A stretch of 6,759 nucleotides of DNA from a virus (taxonomy: Duplodnaviria; Heunggongvirae; Uroviricota; Caudoviricetes), in IMG/VR virus record IMGVR_UViG_3300012155_000195; one strand, given 5' to 3'. Each line of letters begins with the position of its first letter. Within the stretch, counting starts at the first letter, position 1. The translations under genes and the position numbers were made by a program. Below are positions 1 to 6,759 of the stretch, piece after piece. The notes under the pieces are model-generated. The model searched no databases. It saw only the letters and a program-made list of their open reading frames with translations, and had not been told where the DNA came from.

Positions 1-249
1 AACTGCAGTCAGTGAACCGATAAGCGTAGCAAACGTCGCTGAAAACACCGCCATCGTCAATGAATGCTGAGCTGCCTGCAACAGACTGTCGTTGTTCATC
101 AGCAGGCTATACCATTTAGTGGTAAAACCCTGCCAGTTGATGCCAAAGCGCGAGCTGTTGAAAGAGTTCACAATCAAAATAATGATTGGAATATACAGGT
201 ACGCGTAGATAGCGGTCATAAAACCGCCGCGAAGCAGTCGACCGATCAT
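1..249 (-). CDS. potC: Spermidine/putrescine ABC transporter permease PotC, N-terminal 83 codons (partial, runs off window at position 1)
   Basis: Minus-strand ATG at 249-247 preceded by AAGGTGGA RBS. Translation MIGRLLRGGFMTAIYAYLYIPIIILIVNSFNSSRFGINWQGFTTKWYSLLMNNDSLLQAAQHSLTMAVFSATFATLIGSLTAV matches my recollection of E. coli PotC N-terminus; hydrophobic TM1 present. About 50% GC, unlike adjacent AT-rich DNA. Not in the supplied ORF track because it is truncated by the window edge. Confidence 0.8.
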   Translation of the reverse strand, partial: MIGRLLRGGFMTAIYAYLYIPIIILIVNSFNSSRFGINWQGFTTKWYSLLMNNDSLLQAAQHSLTMAVFSATFATLIGSLTAV

Positions 250-300
250 TCGAGTTCCACCTTTTTATTCATAAGGTGGAGCACTTTCAGGATTTTGAAT
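246..300. other. Putative host-prophage junction (attL core region)
   Basis: Upstream reading frame ends KKVELE-TGA with the TGA overlapping the potC ATG (ATGA at 249-246), as expected for the potB-potC junction, but that frame is open for only 39 codons and is AT-rich. Perfect 7-bp inverted repeat ccacctt (257-263) / aaggtgg (273-279) with 9-nt loop. Abrupt compositional shift to AT-rich DNA to the right. Confidence 0.4.
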
Positions 301-318
301 TTATTCAACTTTTTCTCT

Positions 319-352
319 TCTCCAAAATCTCTCCAAAACTTTTCCCCAAAAA
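319..352. repeat. Three tandem ~11-bp direct repeats (tctccaaaatc / tctccaaaact / tttccccaaaaa), candidate arm-type integrase binding sites
   Basis: Direct repeats seen at 319-329, 330-340 and 341-352, about 70-100 bp from the putative core, on the int-proximal side. Lambda-type attP has three tandem arm-type sites at a comparable position. Confidence 0.35.
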
Positions 353-551
353 CAAGCCATGCATTCTACAGTATTTTCATTTATGCACGAATCTTACTAT
401 CCATTGACAATATTACTATTTTATCAAATCAAGTCATGCGGTTAGTGAACTTTGTGTGTTCGTTTTTTGTTCATTTACGATGATGATACTGACAATAGTG
501 GCTAGCTACGCAGGCATATAGAACAAATTAAAATCAATTTCAAGGAATTTA

Positions 552-580
552 TTGACGCTCTTCACGTTTTGTATGATACT
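552..580 (+). promoter_or_regulatory. Putative sigma70 promoter for the ATPase-TOPRIM operon
   Basis: TTGACG (552-557), 17-bp spacer, GATACT (575-580; 4/6 to TATAAT). About 30 bp upstream of the ATG at 611, which has a GGA-containing RBS at 599-603. Confidence 0.3.
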
Positions 581-610
581 AAATTCAACTTCCAAAAAGT
601 GGAAATAATT

Positions 611-1804
611 ATGATTTTTACTAGATTGAAATTTGTAAACCTTTGCGCATTTTCTGATGCAGAATTAAACCTTTCATTTCCCAGAAAGCTGGTTAACTCA
701 CCAATTGATGGTGAATTTTTGTTCGGGAGACCGAAGTTTTATTATCGCAAAGTATGTATCCTCACTGGAGCTAATGCTTCGGGAAAGACTTCCCTTGGTC
801 GTATGTTATGGGGGATTCAGCTTTTCTTGTCCCGGAAAAATTTGTATCAATCAGCTTTTCCTGTAAATGACAAAACCAAGAGTGCTTCCTTTGAGGCAGA
901 TTTTGCAACGGAAGGATTTTTGCATCATCGTATTTTCGTGAAGTTTAGATCCGATAAGTCTGGAACATATTTAATAAGTGAAGTTAAATACGCATCCGTA
1001 TTTATAGGAGAAAATGACTCTTGTGTCAAAACAACAAGAAAATTGGACAGAGTATTTCAAGAGTCAGGTCAGTATATTGCGAATAGCTATTACCATGCAG
1101 TGGCTGCTGATGGGGAATCTGTTTCTTTAGAGAATTTCAAGAAAAATGTGTTTCTTGGTGGATGGTATTATTTATTATCAAAAACAAAGGAAGAAACAAC
1201 AGAAATCTCTGGTTTAGATAAGAATATATTAGAACTTATCATGAAAACCTTTGATCCTAGTATAAAATCAGTTCTTGAATTAAGGGAAAATGATGGTGAA
1301 GAAAATGATAAAGATGTGTTAACGGGGTTTTCTATTCGTTTTCACAATAATGATAATGTTATTGTAACTAACTCTGGAGAAGTTGCTAATTGTGATCGGC
1401 TTTCACGTGGTACATACGATGCTGTAAAATTATCTCATTTTATTAGTTCTATAAATAGTGATTATATGGCATCGTCTGAAACAAATAATATAGCATGTAT
1501 GCTCTATTTTCTTGACGAAAGCATGGCTTATGTTCACTCAGAACTTGAAAGAGCTATCATAACTCTTATTATATCTAAATTGAAGATTAATAGTCAATTT
1601 TTCTATACAACGCATAATTGCGATATTTTTAAATTGGATTTGCCCATTCATTCGTATATTTTCATAAAGAAAGAGCATGATAGCTCAGTATTTGTAGATG
1701 CAAGTGAAATTCTTAAAAAGAATGACAGGAATTTAGCTAAATATGTTGAGAATGATGTTTTTGGTGTTCTTCCCGATTTGTCTTTGATTGAGGCGTTAAT
1801 ATAA
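611..1804 (+). CDS. ABC-type P-loop ATPase (AAA_21/AAA_15-like, OLD/AriA/AbiLi-like ATPase component), 397 aa
   Basis: ORF-track ORF 569..1804; I prefer ATG 611 (RBS 7 nt upstream) over the TTG at 569. Walker A GANASGKTS (767-793), signature-like LSRGT (1400-1414), Walker B MLYFLDE (1499-1519), H-loop TTH (1607-1615). About 200-aa insertion between Walker A and signature. Visibly AT-rich codon usage. Stop TAA overlaps the next ATG. Confidence 0.85.
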   Translation: MIFTRLKFVNLCAFSDAELNLSFPRKLVNSPIDGEFLFGRPKFYYRKVCILTGANASGKTSLGRMLWGIQLFLSRKNLYQSAFPVNDKTKSASFEADFATEGFLHHRIFVKFRSDKSGTYLISEVKYASVFIGENDSCVKTTRKLDRVFQESGQYIANSYYHAVAADGESVSLENFKKNVFLGGWYYLLSKTKEETTEISGLDKNILELIMKTFDPSIKSVLELRENDGEENDKDVLTGFSIRFHNNDNVIVTNSGEVANCDRLSRGTYDAVKLSHFISSINSDYMASSETNNIACMLYFLDESMAYVHSELERAIITLIISKLKINSQFFYTTHNCDIFKLDLPIHSYIFIKKEHDSSVFVDASEILKKNDRNLAKYVENDVFGVLPDLSLIEALI

Positions 1805-2346
1805 TGTCAAAAAATCAGAACGCAAAAATTATTTTTGTTGAAGGTGAAACAGAGTATGCCTTGTTTCAAAAGATGAAGCAAAAAGGTTTGATTAAATTCA
1901 AAAAAATTGTCAAGAAGAATTTTTGGGTTGATGATATAAAGAAATATGCAGTTAACATACCTAAAAATTGTGATTTAATAGTTGTTTTTGATAGTGATGT
2001 TATTGATAGAGTTGATAGATTTATTCAGAATGTTAATTACTTAGCAAGCAGAAAACATTCGATTTTTTTATTGCAACAGACCAGAAATTTCGAAGAGGAA
2101 ATCGCGTATTGCTGCTCTGTAACTTTAAATAAATTGATCGCTTCGTTTTGTAAATGCAAGACATCTGGAGTTGCAGATTTTAAGCGAGATTTTATATCTT
2201 CATCTAATCCTTTTGATAAGCTAGTGGCTTTAGGAATTAACCAGGATAAGTGGTTCAAAAGGGAGTTACATCATTCATTGTTAAGTTTATCAAAGTATAA
2301 ATCAGATTTTTCAACATATTTTAATGCGGATGTTATTAATTTATGA
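1804..2346 (+). CDS. Small TOPRIM-like putative nuclease (DUF4435 / DUF4276 / RloB-like effector component), 180 aa
   Basis: ATG at 1804 overlaps upstream stop (TAATG), indicating translational coupling. N-terminal KIIFVEGETE (E13 at 1840-1842, E15, E17) and LIVVFDSDVID (D63 at 1990-1992, D65 at 1996-1998) match the TOPRIM glutamate and DxD signatures. GAGG RBS at 1790-1793. Confidence 0.8.
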   Translation: MSKNQNAKIIFVEGETEYALFQKMKQKGLIKFKKIVKKNFWVDDIKKYAVNIPKNCDLIVVFDSDVIDRVDRFIQNVNYLASRKHSIFLLQQTRNFEEEIAYCCSVTLNKLIASFCKCKTSGVADFKRDFISSSNPFDKLVALGINQDKWFKRELHHSLLSLSKYKSDFSTYFNADVINL

Positions 2347-2369
2347 TATCTGTGTACTAATGTTATTCG

Positions 2370-2434
2370 TTACTATGGGAGAATTTCATTGTGCTGCTAA
2401 GAAATACAAAGCATAGTAAATCTCCTATTCTCCC
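2370..2434. repeat. Interleaved inverted repeats in the convergent intergenic region between the TOPRIM gene and int
   Basis: ttactatg (2370-2377) pairs with catagtaa (2412-2419); gggagaat (2377-2384) pairs with attctccc (2427-2434). No GC-rich stem plus T-run typical of an intrinsic terminator. Confidence 0.25.
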
Positions 2435-2526
2435 ACATAAGTTAAACGACAGTGCAAGTTTAAATTCGAATCATACTATCAGTATACCTTCAAGATGGCA
2501 ATTATGTTTTTATGGCAAATATCTTA

Positions 2527-3645
2527 TTAAATAACCAATTTAACCCATTCCTGACCACGAGTATCGTTATAACGATCGGTGGTTGCCTGGACTTTATGTC
2601 CCAGTAATGTTTTTGTATCAATACCCTGCGCGCGGTACAGTCGTTCTGACAGGGAGCGTTGTTCATGAAATGTTGGCGGAGTTTTTCCTGCTGGTGGAAT
2701 TATCCCTGCCAGATCCCGTGCTTTGGCAAAGTAGTCGCTCAGGTTGTCTTTACTCATCGGCTTTGGTTGTTTCTGGTGCCGACTATGGATTAGATATGGA
2801 CTTAATATTCTGTCTCGGCACCCATCAATAACTTCTTTTAACGTTATCCCAATGGCATCACAGCGTAGTGTAAGCGGTAACGCCAGACGCATTCCGGTTT
2901 TTCCCTGGGTGATATGCAAGTGTTCGTTCCACACATCTGAAAAACGCATGTGGCAAATGTCATCACGGCGCTGACCAGTAACAATCGCAAGAAGCATTGC
3001 GTTACGGATAAAGTGTTTTTCAGGCGTTGCGTTGTAAATTTTTTGCCAGTCTTCCAGGGTGAGTCTGGCTCTGGTTACTTTAGGGATCGGTTTACGGGTA
3101 GCCTCCGGAGGATTCCATCCAGGAGGAACTTCCCCTGCATGCTGTGCTTCTTTATAAATATCAACCCATAATCCACGATTTACTCTCGCTGTGCTGACCA
3201 TGTCTTTATCCAGCCACTCATCCAGTATTAATGCAAAGTCTCTTACTTCCAGTTCTTTCAATGGGTGGTTTCCCAGACGGGAAACCAGGTATGCAGCCAT
3301 TCGGGCTTTTTCTTTGTGAGTTGTAGCTGCAATATCTCCATTTTTCAGTCGCGTGTCCTGTATTTTCAGATATCGATCAACCCATGCCTTTAATCTGATA
3401 CCCCGACGTTTTGTTGCTGACGGACTTTCATCAATTTTGCGCATGAAATATTCAGCTTCTGCTGCAGCTATTCGCTGATTGGCTGTGGAAGCGATTTTTT
3501 CTGCCTTACCTTTGTCTGTTCCGAGTCCGTGAAATTTTCCAGTCACAGGATTTTTATACTGGTAGTAAACTCTGCCAGTTCTGCGATCAAACTTTTCGTA
3601 AAGACCAGCTACGTCAGTGCTGTTTTTTCGTGGCCTCGGTGACAT
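2527..3645 (-). CDS. int: Lambda-family tyrosine integrase (site-specific recombinase), 372 aa
   Basis: Clear collinear similarity to lambda Int by recall: N-terminal arm-binding region (YYQYKNPVTGKFHGLGTDK vs lambda YCYRDPRTGKEFGLGRDR), catalytic motifs TGQRRDD (Arg), QGKTG (Lys), TFHEQRSLSERLY (His/Arg), LLGHK (His), TDRYNDTRGQEW (Tyr nucleophile). AAGGAGA RBS 9 nt upstream of the ATG at 3645. Confidence 0.95.
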   Translation of the reverse strand: MSPRPRKNSTDVAGLYEKFDRRTGRVYYQYKNPVTGKFHGLGTDKGKAEKIASTANQRIAAAEAEYFMRKIDESPSATKRRGIRLKAWVDRYLKIQDTRLKNGDIAATTHKEKARMAAYLVSRLGNHPLKELEVRDFALILDEWLDKDMVSTARVNRGLWVDIYKEAQHAGEVPPGWNPPEATRKPIPKVTRARLTLEDWQKIYNATPEKHFIRNAMLLAIVTGQRRDDICHMRFSDVWNEHLHITQGKTGMRLALPLTLRCDAIGITLKEVIDGCRDRILSPYLIHSRHQKQPKPMSKDNLSDYFAKARDLAGIIPPAGKTPPTFHEQRSLSERLYRAQGIDTKTLLGHKVQATTDRYNDTRGQEWVKLVI

Positions 3646-3883
3646 GAGTTAAAATCTCCTTCAGTGCATCATCATCGCCAGTATGAATTTCCGGCGCAAT
3701 TCCCGTTTCACCAGGTCCAACAAATACTGCTCGGCGATCTATCAGCCAACGCCCACGAATTTTTTGTGGCCTTGGAACGATGTATCCTAGTTTTCCGTAT
3801 TTCACCAGGGTAGTGTTTGTTATTGGGAGACTGAACCGTTTTGGTTTCCACTCGTCGAGCGTTATCAGGTACTGTTCGCTCAT
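3614..3883 (-). CDS. xis: Excisionase (Xis-like recombination directionality factor), 89 aa
   Basis: Immediately upstream of int and overlapping it by 32 nt, as in lambda. N-terminal MSEQYLITLDEW resembles lambda Xis MYLTLQEW. Start chosen at ATG 3883 (GGAG RBS) rather than the GTG at 3892 used by the ORF track. Confidence 0.8.
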   Translation of the reverse strand: MSEQYLITLDEWKPKRFSLPITNTTLVKYGKLGYIVPRPQKIRGRWLIDRRAVFVGPGETGIAPEIHTGDDDALKEILTHVTEATKKQH

Positions 3884-3944
3884 GGCTATCACTCCGGAAC
3901 GCGCCAGTTGCAGAATACCAACGACAACTGGCGACGGTTGAACA

Positions 3945-6410
3945 TTAAAAATCAGCCTGACTCGGGATCAGTTTTTGCCAGATAGCTGAAACGTATTTTG
4001 CCTGGTAACGGGCGTCATCAAGTGCATTGTGGCGCACCCCTTCGAACGGAATAGCCGTTCTGGCATCGAAGTCTATGGCTTTCCCCAGCTCAACGATTGT
4101 GCGTACATCGCGATCGTTGGACCAGCGCCACGGGCAGGGGATACCATGTCGCTCATATGAACGGCGTAAAATCACGTTGTCGAAGTTGGCTCCATTCCCC
4201 CAGACCCGGACAAAAAATTCACCGGAGTTTTCGTCGATAAATTCCCGCAGTTGCAGCAGTGCATCGTCTAACGGGATTTGATTTACCAAAGTTGCAGATC
4301 TGGCCTCGCTGGACTGTGCCAGCCACCATTCGATGGTGGAACCATCAGGAACAGCACCTTTGTCCATTGCGTCAACTAGGCTGATGACAACATAAAATAT
4401 TGGTCCAATTTCTCCGGTCTGCGGATCGAAAAATATTGCACCTATTGAGATGATCGGGGCATCTGGATTTTTTCCCATGGTTTCAAGGTCGATCATCAGA
4501 TGGTGCCACACCCTGCTGGTGGATGTGATTTGGTGATGACCGTTCATATTAATTAAGGGATCTGTCGCCTCGCCAGTTTCATTATCGCTGGCGTGATGCT
4601 GATTGCCGCCAGGGTTCTCCTTGTGTGGATGTTCAGCGCCTTCCATTTCCTCTGGATCATTTTCCTGAACTTCAACCTGATTCTCTTCATCGAATGTTTC
4701 CTGGTATGTTGCAGCGCCCATCACCGCGCCACAATCAGGGCAGTTGTCACCGCCGGTCTGACCGCAGGCGGTGCAGACTTTTTCCGCTTCCTGTTGCGCT
4801 ACTGGCTCAGGTTGTTTCGTTTCTGGCTCGTTTTGTAACGCATTTGGGCTGTTGTGTTTCGCTTTCTGGTCGTTCTGTTCCGTTTCTTGCTGGTTCTGGT
4901 TCACTGAATCGCGGGGGTCAATCCCCTTCACCCATTTCGGATCATTCGGGTCGCTAATCCCTGCAACAAATTCACCGCGAGAGGCAGCAAGCAACTTATC
5001 GGCGTCAGGCTGGCTGATATTGGCTGCCTGCATAATTTTGTTTACTTCGTCAGCGGTAACTTTTACCTGATTAACTGGATCTACCTGTTTCTGAGTATCC
5101 AGCGATTGCGTGTCCTGGCGATGTTCAGTTGTATCCGGTTCCATTGTTTCAGCCGTTGCCTGTTCATCTGCCATTGCGTCAGACGGTTGTGATTTTTCCT
5201 CATTATTTTTTTCTTCTTCTGTTTCGCGTTCAGCAGCCAGTTCGCGGTTAACTTCTTCCAGGATATCTTTTTCCGGTGTATGTCGTGCAGCAGCGAGAGT
5301 TTCCTCGGTAGGGTTCTCGTGATCAGTCTCTGTTAAATAGGCGTTAATATACCCCTGAAGGCGCCCCGGGTAGTGATAAAACTCAGGGTGTGCGCTTCGG
5401 ATAAGTGCAAAAATAGCGGCACGGGAATAATCCAGAATACCCGGGGTTGAGCGAAGTGCTGCGGACCATTCTTTGAACGGACTTTCTTTCTTCCGGACGA
5501 CTTCTTTTGCGCGACGATAAACGCTGCCCGGGATTTCATAAATATTAAAATCCATCGGAAGTGTGGCCGCTGCAATCTCCACATCCAGCGTATCGAGGGT
5601 GTGCACTAAATTCGGATTGCGATCGGTTTTGTTCCCGCCGCCAGCATTAGCACCGGAAGCCGTGCGGGTGATGCGTGAAACACGATTCCCCTTCATCCAC
5701 TCTTTTGTAAGCAGACCGCGATCGGTGTAGTCAGTGTCAAGGTATGCTTCGATGAAAGCAGTCATCACCCCCAGTTCTGAATTTACGGGGGCGGGAAAAA
5801 CACTGCCAGTATCCCGAACCAGTTTGTATAAATCCCGAATCTCCAGTGGCTCCAGTTGAGCTGCTTTATTTGAAATGGCACGGATTGTAACTGCAGGGAG
5901 TTCCTCATCCAGCGCACTATGTAATGCCCGAAGTTCTTCCCGTGAAACGTGCGTTACTGGTTTTTCGTTGCCGCGTTGAGCAAGCCAGCGAATGGGCAGC
6001 TCCTGACCGGAAACCGGCAGGAGCATGTTCTCCTCAATCTCTGTCATTTCTTCGCCGTTGACGTTGGTATTGTCAGTGCTGGCTGGTTTGTCCTGAACAG
6101 AGGGGGAGGGCGCGATAAGTACCATTGTGATACCATCTTCCCCGCCTTTTTCGTATCGGTTGCAGAATTCGGTATCAAACACGCCTTCCGGAGGAAGGTC
6201 ATTCACAACGGGTAAATGGACGCGAACAGGTTTTTTAAAATCCTCTTCGTCAAATCCGGCATCGTCCATTGCGACAACACCGCGTGATATTGCAACCGAT
6301 AATTTTTTTGCTGTGCGCCAGTAAAAACCGCCTTTAATCCCAAGGCGTTTTCTGACTTTGTCATTTTTGGCTTCGTAATATAGTGCAATTTCTTCTTTAT
6401 CAGTGCTCAT
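3945..6410 (-). CDS. Exodeoxyribonuclease VIII-like mosaic protein with acidic linker, zinc-ribbon-like CxxC..CxxC motif and C-terminal DnaQ-type DEDDh 3'-5' exonuclease domain, 821 aa
   Basis: Long ORF with GAGG RBS upstream of ATG 6410. C-terminal domain has Exo I MIDLETMG (D641 at 4488-4490, E643 at 4482-4484), Exo II GNGANFD (D744) and Exo III HNALDDARYQAKY (H794, D799; 4014-4031). CTACG..CPDCG at residues 546-560 (4731-4775). Glu/Asp/Gln-rich low-complexity regions around residues 360-440 and 500-620. The N-terminal ~350 aa resemble prophage exonuclease VIII (RecE-family) N-terminal regions by recollection only. Confidence 0.85.
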   Translation of the reverse strand: MSTDKEEIALYYEAKNDKVRKRLGIKGGFYWRTAKKLSVAISRGVVAMDDAGFDEEDFKKPVRVHLPVVNDLPPEGVFDTEFCNRYEKGGEDGITMVLIAPSPSVQDKPASTDNTNVNGEEMTEIEENMLLPVSGQELPIRWLAQRGNEKPVTHVSREELRALHSALDEELPAVTIRAISNKAAQLEPLEIRDLYKLVRDTGSVFPAPVNSELGVMTAFIEAYLDTDYTDRGLLTKEWMKGNRVSRITRTASGANAGGGNKTDRNPNLVHTLDTLDVEIAAATLPMDFNIYEIPGSVYRRAKEVVRKKESPFKEWSAALRSTPGILDYSRAAIFALIRSAHPEFYHYPGRLQGYINAYLTETDHENPTEETLAAARHTPEKDILEEVNRELAAERETEEEKNNEEKSQPSDAMADEQATAETMEPDTTEHRQDTQSLDTQKQVDPVNQVKVTADEVNKIMQAANISQPDADKLLAASRGEFVAGISDPNDPKWVKGIDPRDSVNQNQQETEQNDQKAKHNSPNALQNEPETKQPEPVAQQEAEKVCTACGQTGGDNCPDCGAVMGAATYQETFDEENQVEVQENDPEEMEGAEHPHKENPGGNQHHASDNETGEATDPLINMNGHHQITSTSRVWHHLMIDLETMGKNPDAPIISIGAIFFDPQTGEIGPIFYVVISLVDAMDKGAVPDGSTIEWWLAQSSEARSATLVNQIPLDDALLQLREFIDENSGEFFVRVWGNGANFDNVILRRSYERHGIPCPWRWSNDRDVRTIVELGKAIDFDARTAIPFEGVRHNALDDARYQAKYVSAIWQKLIPSQADF

Positions 6411-6500: not shown

Positions 6501-6692
6501 TTAAAGCCCTGCCGGGACTTCGTTATTATCCATGCGAATAACTTTATCGACCGGATAACAGTTACCGGGAATTTTCTGTTCCGCTGCAGCAGCCATGCAT
6601 TCTTTCATTGAGCCATATATACCAGTAACCACATCAACCGGTTCACCTGTATTAAGAAAAACTGTCAGAACGAGTGCAAATGCTGTATTCAT
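6501..6692 (-). CDS. Small hypothetical prophage protein (63 aa) with hydrophobic N-terminus
   Basis: ATG at 6692 with AAAGGA RBS 8 nt upstream. N-terminus MNTAFALVLTVFL looks like a signal peptide or membrane anchor. The ORF track extends it to 6746 but that extension lacks this support and reaches the window edge. Confidence 0.45.
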   Translation of the reverse strand: MNTAFALVLTVFLNTGEPVDVVTGIYGSMKECMAAAAEQKIPGNCYPVDKVIRMDNNEVPAGL

Positions 6693-6759
6693 TGTCAGCG
6701 TCCTTTTTGCATCAGGCGTAAACGGGCCAGCATTGAAACAATGCATATTTGATTTAATA

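What the first reader, a model, noticed from the sequence alone, without database searches (positions are those of the whole stretch)
552..2346. Compact two-gene ATPase + TOPRIM operon: candidate anti-phage defense system of the split-OLD / PARIS / AbiL type
Two translationally coupled genes (TAATG overlap at 1802-1806) with their own promoter-like sequence encode (i) an ABC-type ATPase with a full motif set (Walker A GANASGKTS, signature LSRGT, Walker B LYFLDE, H-loop TTH) and (ii) a 180-aa protein with the two defining TOPRIM signatures (VEGETE glutamates; DSD aspartates). An ABC ATPase coupled to a TOPRIM nuclease is the architecture of P2 Old and Gabija GajA (fused) and of PARIS AriA/AriB (split; AriB is a DUF4435 TOPRIM effector). 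Small RloB/DUF4276-like partners of AAA_21 ATPases are a further possibility. Both proteins look shorter than the PARIS components as I recall them, so this may be a minimal or undescribed subfamily. I cannot assign it to a named family from sequence reading alone.
Basis: partly seen in the sequence, partly recalled or inferred. Interest (0 to 1): 0.9.

Follow-up and report, generated by a model that had tools for sequence, protein, structure and literature searches.

The report
Prophage ATPase plus small TOPRIM nuclease pair
A lambdoid prophage of E. coli carries, between its attachment site and its integrase gene, a two-gene cassette encoding an ABC-type ATPase and a small OLD-type TOPRIM nuclease; it is most likely an untested, AbiL-like anti-phage system of an already known kind.

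Summary
Two genes overlap by one base (TAATG, 1802-1806). They encode a 397-aa ABC-type ATPase with all motifs intact and a 180-aa protein with TOPRIM topology.

- **The nuclease.** E13, E17, D63, D65, E97, E99 and K127 are invariant or nearly so across more than 100 diverse relatives. They match the two-metal catalytic set of OLD nucleases.
- **The pairing.** The partner lies directly downstream in 43 of 44 viral contigs and in 69 of 80 genome loci (about 58 intact). Both genes are under strong purifying selection in E. coli.
- **The setting.** The cassette (381-2528, about 30% GC) is cargo in the attL-int slot of a prophage next to potC. It occurs in 9 of 5426 complete E. coli genomes. Relatives sit in other prophage accessory positions, in phages and on a small plasmid.
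- **Nearest known.** The ATPase matches AbiLi (E 1e-24), then mad3, AriA and PtuA. It is not PARIS, because no DUF4435 is found. The partner is only marginally like AbiLii, RloB and OLD-like TOPRIM, and belongs to no Pfam family.

Best reading: an ATPase sensor coupled to a nuclease effector, acting as a defence system by analogy with PARIS and OLD. Function, trigger and target are untested.

The parts
381..2528 (.). Variable cargo module in the attL-int slot of the prophage integrated next to potC. GC is about 27-38%, against about 46-53% in the flanks.
   Evidence: blastn against a sister prophage (L002) aligns window 1-380 and 2529-5067 but not 381-2528. Other strains have the slot empty, or holding a hypothetical gene plus a DUF2335 gene.
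552..580 (+). Promoter-like site TTGACG-17 nt-GATACT upstream of gene 1. This is a weak consensus match only.
   Evidence: It matches 9 of 12 positions. The region holds 17 such sites against 11.3 expected, so it is not significant on its own.
611..1804 (+). Gene 1: a 397-aa ABC-type (AAA_15/21, AbiLi-like) ATPase, the presumed sensor or regulator.
   Evidence: Pfam AAA_15 3.6e-8; PADLOC AbiLi 1.4e-24, mad3 7e-13, AriA 1e-9, PtuA 1e-7. AF2 model pLDDT 86.9. Foldseek matches PtuA, Rad50, SMC, OLD and GajA. phrog_5836 8e-81. pN/pS 0.01-0.20.
767..793 (+). Walker A / P-loop GANASGKTS (aa 53-61, K59).
   Evidence: Read from the sequence. G53, N55, G58, K59 and T60 are invariant in 40 homologues.
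1400..1414 (+). ABC signature motif LSRGT (aa 264-268).
   Evidence: R263, S265, G267 and T268 are invariant in 40 homologues.
1502..1519 (+). Walker B LYFLDE (aa 298-303).
   Evidence: D302 is invariant and E303 nearly invariant.
1607..1615 (+). H-loop TTH (aa 333-335).
   Evidence: Q329, Y332, T333, T334, H335 and N336 are invariant.
1802..1806 (+). TAATG stop/start overlap that couples the two genes.
   Evidence: Read from the sequence. In 52 related loci the gap between the genes is -50 to +26 nt, and 24 of them overlap.
1804..2346 (+). Gene 2: a 180-aa stand-alone OLD-type TOPRIM protein, the presumed metal-dependent nuclease effector.
1840..1854 (+). E13-G-E-T-E17: the TOPRIM glutamate at the end of beta1 plus a second glutamate four residues later (ExxxE).
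   Evidence: E13, G14 and E17 are invariant. The spacing is the same as E400/E404 of BpOLD (PMC6755086).
1990..1998 (+). D63-S-D65: the DxD motif at the end of beta3.
   Evidence: Invariant. Corresponds to D455/D457 of BpOLD.
2092..2100 (+). E97-E-E99 at the start of the helix after beta4 (family motif QQxxNFE[DE]E); the candidate metal-B ligands.
   Evidence: E97 is invariant and E99 is invariant or nearly so. The position is analogous to T506/E508 of BpOLD. This correspondence is inferred.
2182..2184 (+). K127 in the helical tail ([DE]FK motif); the candidate catalytic lysine.
   Evidence: Nearly invariant. Analogous to K562 of BpOLD. This correspondence is inferred.
2527..3645 (-). Lambda-type integrase of the host prophage. 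Context, not part of the system.
   Evidence: Arm-DNA-bind_1 3.7e-21 and Phage_integrase 2e-18. This integrase type occurs in 1627 of 5426 E. coli genomes.
1..249 (-). 5' part of the host gene potC. It marks the chromosomal side of attL and is context only.
   Evidence: RefSeq annotation of identical loci. The start codon is read at 247-249 on the minus strand.

Best explanation
The cassette is a self-contained two-gene anti-phage (or inter-phage competition) module carried as accessory cargo by a lambdoid prophage.

Gene 1 makes a compact ABC-type ATPase that can probably hydrolyse ATP. Gene 2 makes a 21-kDa stand-alone TOPRIM nuclease with an OLD-type two-metal active site.

The most likely mechanism, by analogy with PARIS, P2 Old and Gabija, has three steps:
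1. The ATPase binds the nuclease and holds it inactive in the lysogen.
2. A cue from an infecting phage is sensed through the variable insert of the ATPase (aa ~76-260).
3. The nuclease is released or switched on and cuts nucleic acid (tRNA or DNA). This stops translation or replication and aborts the infection.

**Shown here by computation:**
- the domain identities
- conservation of the catalytic residues
- the near-universal pairing and translational coupling of the two genes
- purifying selection on both genes
- carriage on mobile elements

**Inferred only:**
- complex formation
- the sensor and effector roles
- the trigger
- the substrate
- the abortive outcome
For: **Architecture and motifs.** The genes, the overlap and the motifs are as described.

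**ATPase.**
- Nearest HMMs are AbiLi, then mad3, AriA and PtuA. All 40 homologues hit AbiLi.
- The fold matches PtuA, Rad50, SMC, TsOLD and GajA at E 1e-11 to 1e-8.

**Partner.**
- The strand order fits TOPRIM, with E at the end of beta1 and DxD at the end of beta3.
- The invariant E13/E17, D63/D65, E97/E99 and K127 mirror the BpOLD set E400/E404, D455/D457, T506/E508 and K562.
- The recurrent weak hits are OLD-like_TOPRIM, DUF3226, RloB and AbiLii.

**Pair conservation.**
- A partner lies directly downstream in 54 of 80 genome loci on first pass. Most of the rest have GTG starts, decayed copies or contig ends.
- 43 of 44 IMG/VR contigs have the partner downstream.
- Similarity of the ATPases and of the partners to the window proteins is correlated (Spearman 0.63).

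**Selection.** Against strain 52F4 there are 32 synonymous differences and 1 nonsynonymous difference.

**Mobile, variable context.**
- The attL-int slot has three states.
- Relatives lie in the nin region of a lambdoid prophage, in other prophages, next to the integrase of Acinetobacter phage Ab105-3phi, between the portal and terminase genes of a gut phage on the opposite strand, and on a 12.7-kb mobilizable plasmid.

**Literature.** ABC ATPase plus TOPRIM pairs (PARIS, AbiL, MADS3-4, OLD, Gabija) are established defence systems.
Against: - No experiment exists for this family. HEC-01, another ATPase plus TOPRIM pair, gave no protection when tested.
- The window's partner is below every curated threshold. 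OLD-like_TOPRIM scores 16.8 bits against 23.2. AbiLii scores 5e-4 over only 24 of 170 profile positions.
- HMM searches of PDB sequences found no AriB, GajA or OLD.
- In 36 non-enteric genomes the immediate neighbours are mostly housekeeping genes, with only a minority of restriction-modification, MADS or ATPase genes. No formal enrichment test was possible.
- The 30%-GC DNA may be silenced by H-NS in E. coli (inference).
- The promoter call is not significant.
Confidence: 0.65

Rival explanations
1. The pair is an addiction or toxin-antitoxin-like module. The TOPRIM nuclease would be the toxin and the ATPase its neutraliser, and the main role would be to stabilise the prophage or plasmid rather than to defend against phages.
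For: - It is a compact two-gene operon with overlapping genes.
- It is found on a small mobilizable plasmid and on prophages.
- The lactococcal Abi review, citing Deep et al. 2024, describes PARIS as behaving like a type II TA system.
- The partner has decayed in a few loci while the ATPase persists (L047, L064, L060).
Against: - In PARIS, deleting either gene was non-toxic and abolished defence (PMC9122126).
- The gene order and the large ATPase with all catalytic motifs conserved fit a sensor better than a simple antitoxin.
- The two roles do not exclude each other.
Confidence: 0.12
2. The pair is a restriction-linked or anti-plasmid accessory of the RloAB or MADS3-4 type. It would back up or cooperate with restriction-modification systems, or act against plasmids, rather than act alone against phages.
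For: - The ATPase hits mad3 (36 of 40 homologues, best 2e-13).
- Some family loci neighbour type III restriction-modification genes, ResIII helicases or mads2/3.
- RloB gives sub-threshold hits.
Against: - The window copy and all enterobacterial, phage and plasmid copies examined stand alone, with no restriction-modification or MADS genes beside them.
- Most neighbours are unrelated housekeeping genes.
Confidence: 0.08
3. The pair is a recombination or repair pair that serves the prophage itself. It would resemble RecF/RecR (ABC ATPase plus TOPRIM protein) or Rad50/SbcC and would work on phage DNA ends.
For: - RecF plus RecR is a classic ABC ATPase plus TOPRIM pair (established knowledge).
- The ATPase model resembles Rad50 and SMC heads.
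- The cassette lies near the prophage recombination genes int, xis and a RecE-like exonuclease.
Against: - No RecF, RecR, Toprim_4 or zinc-finger hits were found.
- The partner has the OLD nuclease catalytic set, including the lysine.
- The cassette is absent from more than 99% of prophages with this integrase (9 of 1627), so it is dispensable cargo.
- It sits in different, non-homologous positions in other phages.
Confidence: 0.04
4. The cassette is inert hitch-hiking DNA, silenced or decaying, with no current function in E. coli.
For: - It is very AT-rich foreign DNA.
- It is rare, in 9 of 5426 genomes.
- No significant promoter or terminator was found.
Against: - Both ORFs are intact in all copies examined, and differences are almost all synonymous (pN/pS 0-0.2).
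- The pair and its catalytic residues are conserved across phyla.
Confidence: 0.06

Closest known systems
AbiL (AbiLi + AbiLii) of Lactococcus lactis plasmid pND861, and the AbiL models in PADLOC
   Same: - Both are two-gene operons with the ATPase first and a small TOPRIM-type protein second, carried on mobile DNA.
- AbiLi is the best-scoring defence HMM for the ATPase (1.4e-24), and all 40 homologues hit it (best 2e-30).
- AbiLii is the only defence HMM that recurs for the partner family (25 of 54).
   Different: - The scores are those of a distant relative, not a member. For comparison, phrog_5836 gives 8e-81.
- The window partner hits AbiLii at only 5e-4, over 24 of 170 profile positions.
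- RloB (PF13707), which as I recall is the Pfam family that holds AbiLii, is below threshold.
- The host range differs (Enterobacterales prophages, not lactococcal plasmids).
- No authentic AbiLi or AbiLii sequence was available for a direct comparison.
PARIS (AriA + AriB)
   Same: - It is a split AAA_15/21 ABC ATPase plus a TOPRIM effector, often carried by phages or satellites in variable hotspots next to int.
- Weak AriA hits occur (1e-9; 20 of 40 homologues).
- It supplies the mechanistic template: an ATPase scaffold releases a tRNA-cleaving TOPRIM dimer (PMC11464382).
   Different: - No DUF4435 is found in the partner, so the published PARIS detection rule fails.
- The partner is 180 aa (about 21 kDa) against 35 kDa for AriB. 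The ATPase is 397 aa (about 46 kDa) against 55 kDa for AriA.
- The model shows no long helical or coiled-coil insert.
- No sequence-level match to the PARIS chains in the PDB was found.
OLD family nucleases (P2 Old, TsOLD, BpOLD, Gabija GajA)
   Same: - They combine the same two domains.
- The partner carries the same catalytic pattern: ExxxE, DxD, an acidic pair after beta4, and a lysine in the helical part.
- Foldseek places the ATPase with TsOLD and GajA.
   Different: - In OLD proteins the domains are fused in one polypeptide. Here they are separate genes, and none of the 150 best of 348 partner-family clusters is a fusion.
- No UvrD/GajB or reverse-transcriptase partner is present.
- The window protein is below the Pfam OLD-like_TOPRIM cut-off (16.8 against 23.2 bits).
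HEC-01, HEC-04/IbfA and MADS3-4
   Same: - All are ABC ATPases with a separate (HEC-01, MADS3-4) or fused (HEC-04/IbfA) TOPRIM domain, proposed or shown to be defence systems.
- mad3 is the second-best HMM for the ATPase.
- A few partners weakly hit HEC-01B.
   Different: - The ATPase gives no HEC-01A or HEC-04 hit.
- The cassette is not embedded in Hma or MADS loci.
- HEC-01 itself showed no activity when tested.

Membership tests
ABC-type ATPase of the AAA_15/AAA_21 (Rad50/SMC/PtuA/OLD-like) group | Walker A, ABC signature, Walker B and H-loop present in order and conserved | tested here: met
   GANASGKTS, LSRGT, LYFLDE and TTH are present. Their core residues are invariant in 40 homologues.
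ABC-type ATPase of the AAA_15/AAA_21 (Rad50/SMC/PtuA/OLD-like) group | Profile and fold match | tested here: met
   Pfam AAA_15 scores 33.9 bits against a cut-off of 32.1; AAA_21 scores 24.7, below its cut-off of 27. Foldseek matches PtuA, Rad50, SMC head, TsOLD and GajA at E 2e-11 to 1e-8.
ABC transporter nucleotide-binding subunit | ABC_tran profile and a cognate permease in the operon | tested here: not met
   There is no ABC_tran hit, only chance-level CcmA hits (E 0.014, 15 bits against a cut-off of 200). The adjacent potC is a host gene on the other strand, across the prophage boundary.
TOPRIM domain | Four-stranded parallel sheet with a conserved Glu after beta1 and DxD after beta3 | tested here: met
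   The AF2 model (pLDDT 87.8) has beta1 8-12 followed by E13, and beta3 57-63 followed by D63-x-D65. These residues are invariant in the sets of 54 and 58 sequences.
TOPRIM domain | Specific structural similarity to solved TOPRIM proteins | tested here: inconclusive
OLD family nuclease | Two-metal catalytic set (E, E+4, DxD, acidic residue at the start of the helical domain, Lys) | tested here: met
   The invariant E13/E17, D63/D65, E97/E99 and K127 match the pattern of BpOLD E400/E404, D455/D457, T506/E508 and K562. The residue-to-residue correspondence is inferred from order and secondary structure, not from a superposition.
OLD family nuclease | ATPase and TOPRIM in one polypeptide (classes 1-3) | tested here: not met
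   They are separate genes. All 150 listed relatives of the partner are stand-alone proteins of 74-195 aa.
OLD family nuclease | Pfam OLD-like_TOPRIM at the gathering score | tested here: not met
   The window protein scores 16.8 bits against 23.2. Some relatives reach E 5e-7 to 1e-6.
PARIS | AAA_15 at 32 bits or more, or AAA_21 at 27 bits or more, in one gene (detection rule of Rousset 2022) | tested here: met
   AAA_15 scores 33.9 bits. The rule is quoted.
PARIS | DUF4435 (PF14491) at 27 bits or more in the partner | tested here: not met
   The window protein has no DUF4435 hit at E <= 1. DUF4435 is also absent from the family lists for the 16, 54 and 58 relatives (the list for the 54 shows only the top 25 families).
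AbiL | AbiLi-type ATPase | tested here: met
   PADLOC AbiLi PDLC02335 scores 1.4e-24 over profile positions 50-289 of 326. All 40 homologues hit it. The score is that of a distant relative.
AbiL | AbiLii / RloB-type partner | tested here: inconclusive
   AbiLii scores 5e-4 over 24 of 170 positions for the window protein. It hits 25 of 54 relatives at E < 0.1, best 1.5e-5. RloB hits 7/16, 3/54 and 0/58 relatives, all below the cut-off.
AbiL | Abortive-infection phenotype that needs both genes | not testable with these tools
   This needs phage challenge of the cloned operon and of single-gene deletions.
Anti-phage defence system (general) | Carriage in variable hotspots of mobile elements or in defence islands | tested here: met
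   The attL-int slot has three alternative states. Relatives lie in the nin region, next to int, between the portal and terminase genes, and on a plasmid. 44 IMG/VR contigs carry a relative. The defence-island signal in 36 other genomes is weak.
RecF/RecR | RecF or RecR profiles, and the RecR zinc finger or HhH | tested here: not met
   No such hits were found.

The most novel reading that the evidence does not exclude
The pair defines an unnamed, cross-phylum family of 'minimal split OLD' systems, often carried by phages (phrog_5836 plus phrog_10204). It couples a compact ABC ATPase without a coiled coil to the smallest known OLD-type TOPRIM effector (about 170 aa, motifs VEGxxE, DxD, QQxxNFE[DE]E, [DE]FK). 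Its trigger and nucleic-acid target would be distinct from those of PARIS, AbiL and Old, and current Pfam-based and PARIS rules miss it.
Probability: 0.45. Interest if true: 0.5.

Novelty: new variant of a known kind. Interest (0 to 1): 0.4.

Why it matters
If it is active, the pair would add a compact, easily cloned member (1.74 kb of coding sequence) to the ABC-ATPase/TOPRIM defence superfamily.

- **A small model effector.** The effector is small enough to serve as a minimal model for how OLD-type nucleases are held in check and released.
- **A gap in annotation.** A pair found in Proteobacteria, Firmicutes, Spirochaetes, Fusobacteria, phages and plasmids has no Pfam family for its effector, is below the profile cut-offs tested and is annotated only as 'ATP-binding protein' plus 'hypothetical protein'.
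- **A cargo slot.** The attL-int junction of a very common E. coli prophage (the integrase type found in 1627 of 5426 genomes) is shown to be a slot where alternative cargo is swapped.

It would not change the general picture, because this kind of system is already established.

Tried and rejected
- **PDB sequence searches** with both single proteins and both family profiles found no relatives.
- **Foldseek of the partner model against the PDB** found nothing significant. The afdb50 library was unavailable.
- **NCBIfam** gave only chance hits.
- **A profile search of the 5.8-billion-protein database with the partner family** returned 158 clusters. All 120 listed were unannotated, so there was no bridge to RloB or DUF4435.
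- **The exhaustive HMMER search of 1.84 billion representatives** gave 348 clusters. The best 150 are all stand-alone small proteins, so no Rosetta-stone fusion was found.
- **Scanning the weakest listed relatives against Pfam** again gave only OLD-like_TOPRIM and DUF3226.
- **Literature searches by accession** found nothing. No paper was found that tests this family.
- **An authentic lactococcal AbiL sequence** for direct comparison could not be obtained.
- **Rfam, repeat and RNA-fold checks** of the cassette and its flanks found nothing.
- **The transporter-ATPase reading was rejected** because potC is a host gene across the prophage boundary. The RecF/RecR reading was rejected for lack of any profile support.
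- **The neighbour survey of 36 genomes** was only descriptive, because the tool returns pooled counts and there was no background set.
Full report
**1. What is in the window**

The window is the left end of a lambdoid (Rac-like) prophage in Escherichia coli.

- Bases 1-249 (minus strand) are the 5' part of the host gene potC.
- Beyond the cassette lie the prophage integrase (2527-3645, minus strand), an excisionase (3614-3892, minus strand), a RecE-like exonuclease (3945-6410, minus strand) and a small DUF1482/YdfD-like gene.
- The finding occupies the region in between. This stretch has 27-38% GC, while the flanks have 46-53%.
- blastn against a sister prophage at the same site aligns window 1-380 and 2529-5067 but nothing in between. 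So 381-2528 is a discrete cargo module.
- The same integrase type is present in 1627 of 5426 complete E. coli genomes. The cassette is present in only 9.
- In six sampled strains the slot was empty in five, with 166 bp between potC and int. In one, and in a further strain sampled earlier, it held a different cassette: a hypothetical gene plus a DUF2335 gene.

**2. Check of the observation**

- Gene 1 runs from ATG 611 to TAA 1802-1804 (397 aa). Gene 2 runs from ATG 1804 to 2346 (180 aa). TAATG lies at 1802-1806.
- RefSeq uses the same starts.
- The ATPase motifs are Walker A GANASGKTS (K59), signature LSRGT, Walker B LYFLDE and H-loop TTH. Their core residues are invariant in 40 homologues down to 35% identity.
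- VEGETE and DSD in gene 2 are likewise invariant in 54 diverse relatives. They are also invariant in an independent set of 58 drawn from the exhaustive search.
- The promoter-like site at 552-580 is only a 9-of-12 match in an AT-rich region where such matches are common (17 found, 11.3 expected). It carries no weight.
- No terminator or unusual RNA structure follows gene 2.

**3. The ATPase**

- Pfam places it just above the AAA_15 cut-off (33.9 against 32.1 bits) and just below AAA_21.
- In PADLOC the best model is AbiLi (1.4e-24), followed by mad3 (7e-13), AriA (1e-9) and PtuA (1e-7). All 40 homologues hit AbiLi and 36 hit mad3.
- The AlphaFold model (pLDDT 86.9) matches PtuA of Septu and retron systems, Rad50, SMC heads, Thermus OLD and GajA at Foldseek E 2e-11 to 1e-8.
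- It is therefore an ABC-type ATPase of the group used by many defence systems, not a transporter subunit. There is no ABC_tran hit and no permease in the operon.
- The segment between the Walker A helix and the signature motif (aa ~76-260) is a mixed alpha/beta insert without a long coiled coil.
- That insert is more variable than the catalytic core. The mean frequency of the commonest residue is 0.39-0.41 in the insert and 0.63-0.69 in the core.
- No solved structure is detectable by sequence.

**4. The partner**

The window protein has no Pfam family. Its only hit is OLD-like_TOPRIM at 16.8 bits, below the cut-off of 23.2. Four lines of evidence converge on an OLD-type TOPRIM nuclease.

- **(a) Topology.** The AlphaFold model (pLDDT 87.8) has the order beta1-alpha-beta2-alpha-beta3-alpha-beta4 followed by a helical tail. 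E13 comes directly after beta1 and D63-x-D65 directly after beta3, which is the diagnostic TOPRIM arrangement (definition quoted from PMC6755086).
- **(b) Catalytic residues.** Across the family the invariant or nearly invariant residues are E13, G14, E17, D63, D65, E97, E99, K127, Q92 and N76. This reproduces the catalytic set defined for Burkholderia OLD: E400 and E404 (same spacing), D455/D457, an acidic pair at the start of the helical part (T506/E508) and a lysine in that part (K562). The residue-by-residue correspondence is my inference from order and secondary structure.
- **(c) Recurrent weak profile hits.** The Pfam and PADLOC hits that recur are to this clan. OLD-like_TOPRIM hits 13/16, 12/54 and 8/58 family members (best 5e-7). 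OLD-like_TOPRIM_1 hits 9/54. DUF3226 and RloB give sub-threshold hits. AbiLii hits 25/54 (best 1.5e-5).

**5. The two genes form a unit**

- In a scan of one genome per species, 80 loci encode a relative of the ATPase. They come from Gamma- and Betaproteobacteria, Lachnospiraceae and other Clostridia, Spirochaetes, Fusobacteria, Verrucomicrobia, Acholeplasmatales and Campylobacterota.
- In 54 of the 80, an intact partner follows at -50 to +26 nt. Of the 52 distinct pairs, 24 overlap.
- Most of the remainder turned out to have GTG starts, decayed copies or contig ends. Only about five loci with room downstream lack any partner-like sequence.
- In IMG/VR, 44 viral contigs carry the ATPase and 43 have the partner directly downstream. 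The 44th ends 9 bases after the ATPase.
- Similarity of the ATPase and of the partner to the window proteins is correlated across loci (Spearman 0.63).
- Within E. coli both genes are intact, and nearly all differences are synonymous. Against strain 52F4 there are 32 synonymous differences and 1 nonsynonymous difference.
- The exhaustive search of 1.84 billion representatives found 348 partner-family clusters. The best 150 are all stand-alone proteins of 74-195 aa, so no fused forms were seen.

**6. Context**

Every enterobacterial relative examined is prophage cargo, at a different non-essential position in each case.

- One lies in the nin region of a lambdoid prophage, between the replication genes and the Q antiterminator.
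- One lies between tail and regulatory genes of a Citrobacter prophage close to int and xis.
- One lies next to Ead/Ea22 genes and a giant polyvalent protein.

Elsewhere the pair also sits on mobile elements.

- It lies beside the integrase of Acinetobacter phage Ab105-3phi.
- It lies on the opposite strand between the portal and large terminase genes of a human-gut phage.
- It lies on a 12.7-kb mobilizable plasmid.
- Both proteins belong to PHROGs of unknown function: phrog_5836 at 8e-81 and phrog_10204 at 2e-63.

By contrast, the two nearest neighbours on each side in 36 other genomes are mostly housekeeping genes. A minority are type III restriction-modification genes, ResIII helicases, mads2/3 or further AAA_15/21 ATPases. 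No formal enrichment test was possible.

**7. Most likely mechanism**

The literature establishes ABC ATPase plus TOPRIM as a recurrent defence architecture.

- Examples are P2 Old, Gabija, PARIS, AbiL, MADS3-4 and the HEC candidates.
- In PARIS an AriA hexamer holds AriB. Sensing the phage protein Ocr releases AriB, which dimerises and cleaves tRNA-Lys (PMC11464382).
- P2 Old is also reported to cut tRNAs (titles and abstracts listed).

By analogy I propose that the ATPase binds and restrains the small nuclease and senses a phage cue through its variable insert. ATP-dependent release or activation of the nuclease then halts translation or replication.

The domain identities, conserved catalytic residues, pairing, selection and mobility are shown here. 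The complex, the sensor and effector roles, the trigger, the substrate and the abortive outcome are inferred. Confidence is about 0.65.

The rival readings are:
- a toxin-antitoxin or addiction role (0.12)
- a restriction-linked or anti-plasmid role (0.08)
- inert cargo (0.06, contradicted by purifying selection)
- a phage recombination function of the RecF/RecR type (0.04, no profile support)

**8. Comparison with known systems and novelty**

- **PARIS.** The cassette is not PARIS by the published rule. That rule needs AAA_15 or AAA_21 plus DUF4435 at 27 bits or more. The ATPase criterion is met and the DUF4435 criterion is not. Both proteins are also smaller than AriA and AriB.
- **OLD classes 1-3.** It is not one of these, because the domains are split.
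- **AbiL.** This is the closest known system. The ATPase is a clear but distant relative of AbiLi, while the partner is only marginally related to AbiLii and RloB. Membership is therefore inconclusive. I could not obtain an authentic AbiL sequence or run DefenseFinder.

I class the cassette as a new variant of a known kind: an unannotated, cross-phylum, often phage-borne 'minimal split OLD' or AbiL-like family. Specialists would not be surprised by it, but it is a clean and compact candidate for testing. Interest is 0.4.

Noticed in passing
window 3945-6410 (-): The 821-aa prophage 'exonuclease' is a hybrid. Its N-terminal and middle parts match RecE (Pfam Exonuc_VIII over aa 56-189; NCBIfam exodeoxyribonuclease VIII over protein residues 1-621 and profile positions 1-603 of 877, at 895 bits against a cut-off of 1269). 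Its C-terminus is an Rv2179c-like DEDD 3'-5' exo(ribo)nuclease (PF16473, 3e-68) rather than the RecE catalytic domain. The same gene sits beside this integrase in most sampled strains; one O157:H7 copy is truncated.
   Followed up: partly
window 381-2528, compared with L002 6132-7061 and L097-L102: The junction between attL (next to potC) and int of this common prophage acts as a cargo slot with at least three states: empty (166 bp), a hypothetical gene plus a DUF2335 gene, or the ATPase plus TOPRIM pair. The function of the DUF2335 cassette is unknown.
   Followed up: partly
L004 3968-11588; L005; L086 3900-7354: In Acinetobacter the pair lies directly after umuD/umuC-like genes and near an integrase, both in the A. 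bereziniae chromosome and in phage Ab105-3phi. L004 also carries a second, different pair (AAA_21 ATPase of 461 aa plus a 144-aa protein) 2.5 kb downstream, beyond an IS element.
   Followed up: no
L047 ~11098-11607; L064 ~11097-11610; L060 4950-5459: A few partner genes look decayed while the ATPase gene stays intact: the N-terminal VEG motif is lost, or there are in-frame stops. Several Clostridia partners start with GTG. Five loci (L027, L029, L074, L078, L080) have an ATPase with no detectable partner.
   Followed up: partly
window 250-380: The 131 bp between the potC start and the cargo is shared at about 92% identity by about 650 E. coli genomes, but not by all carriers of this integrase (1627). 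It is probably the phage-derived attL arm, which replaces the end of potB. The att core was not mapped.
   Followed up: no
window 6501-6746 (-): A small ORF matches phrog_1092 (3e-37, unknown function) and corresponds to the DUF1482/YdfD-like gene annotated upstream of dicB in sister prophages.
   Followed up: no
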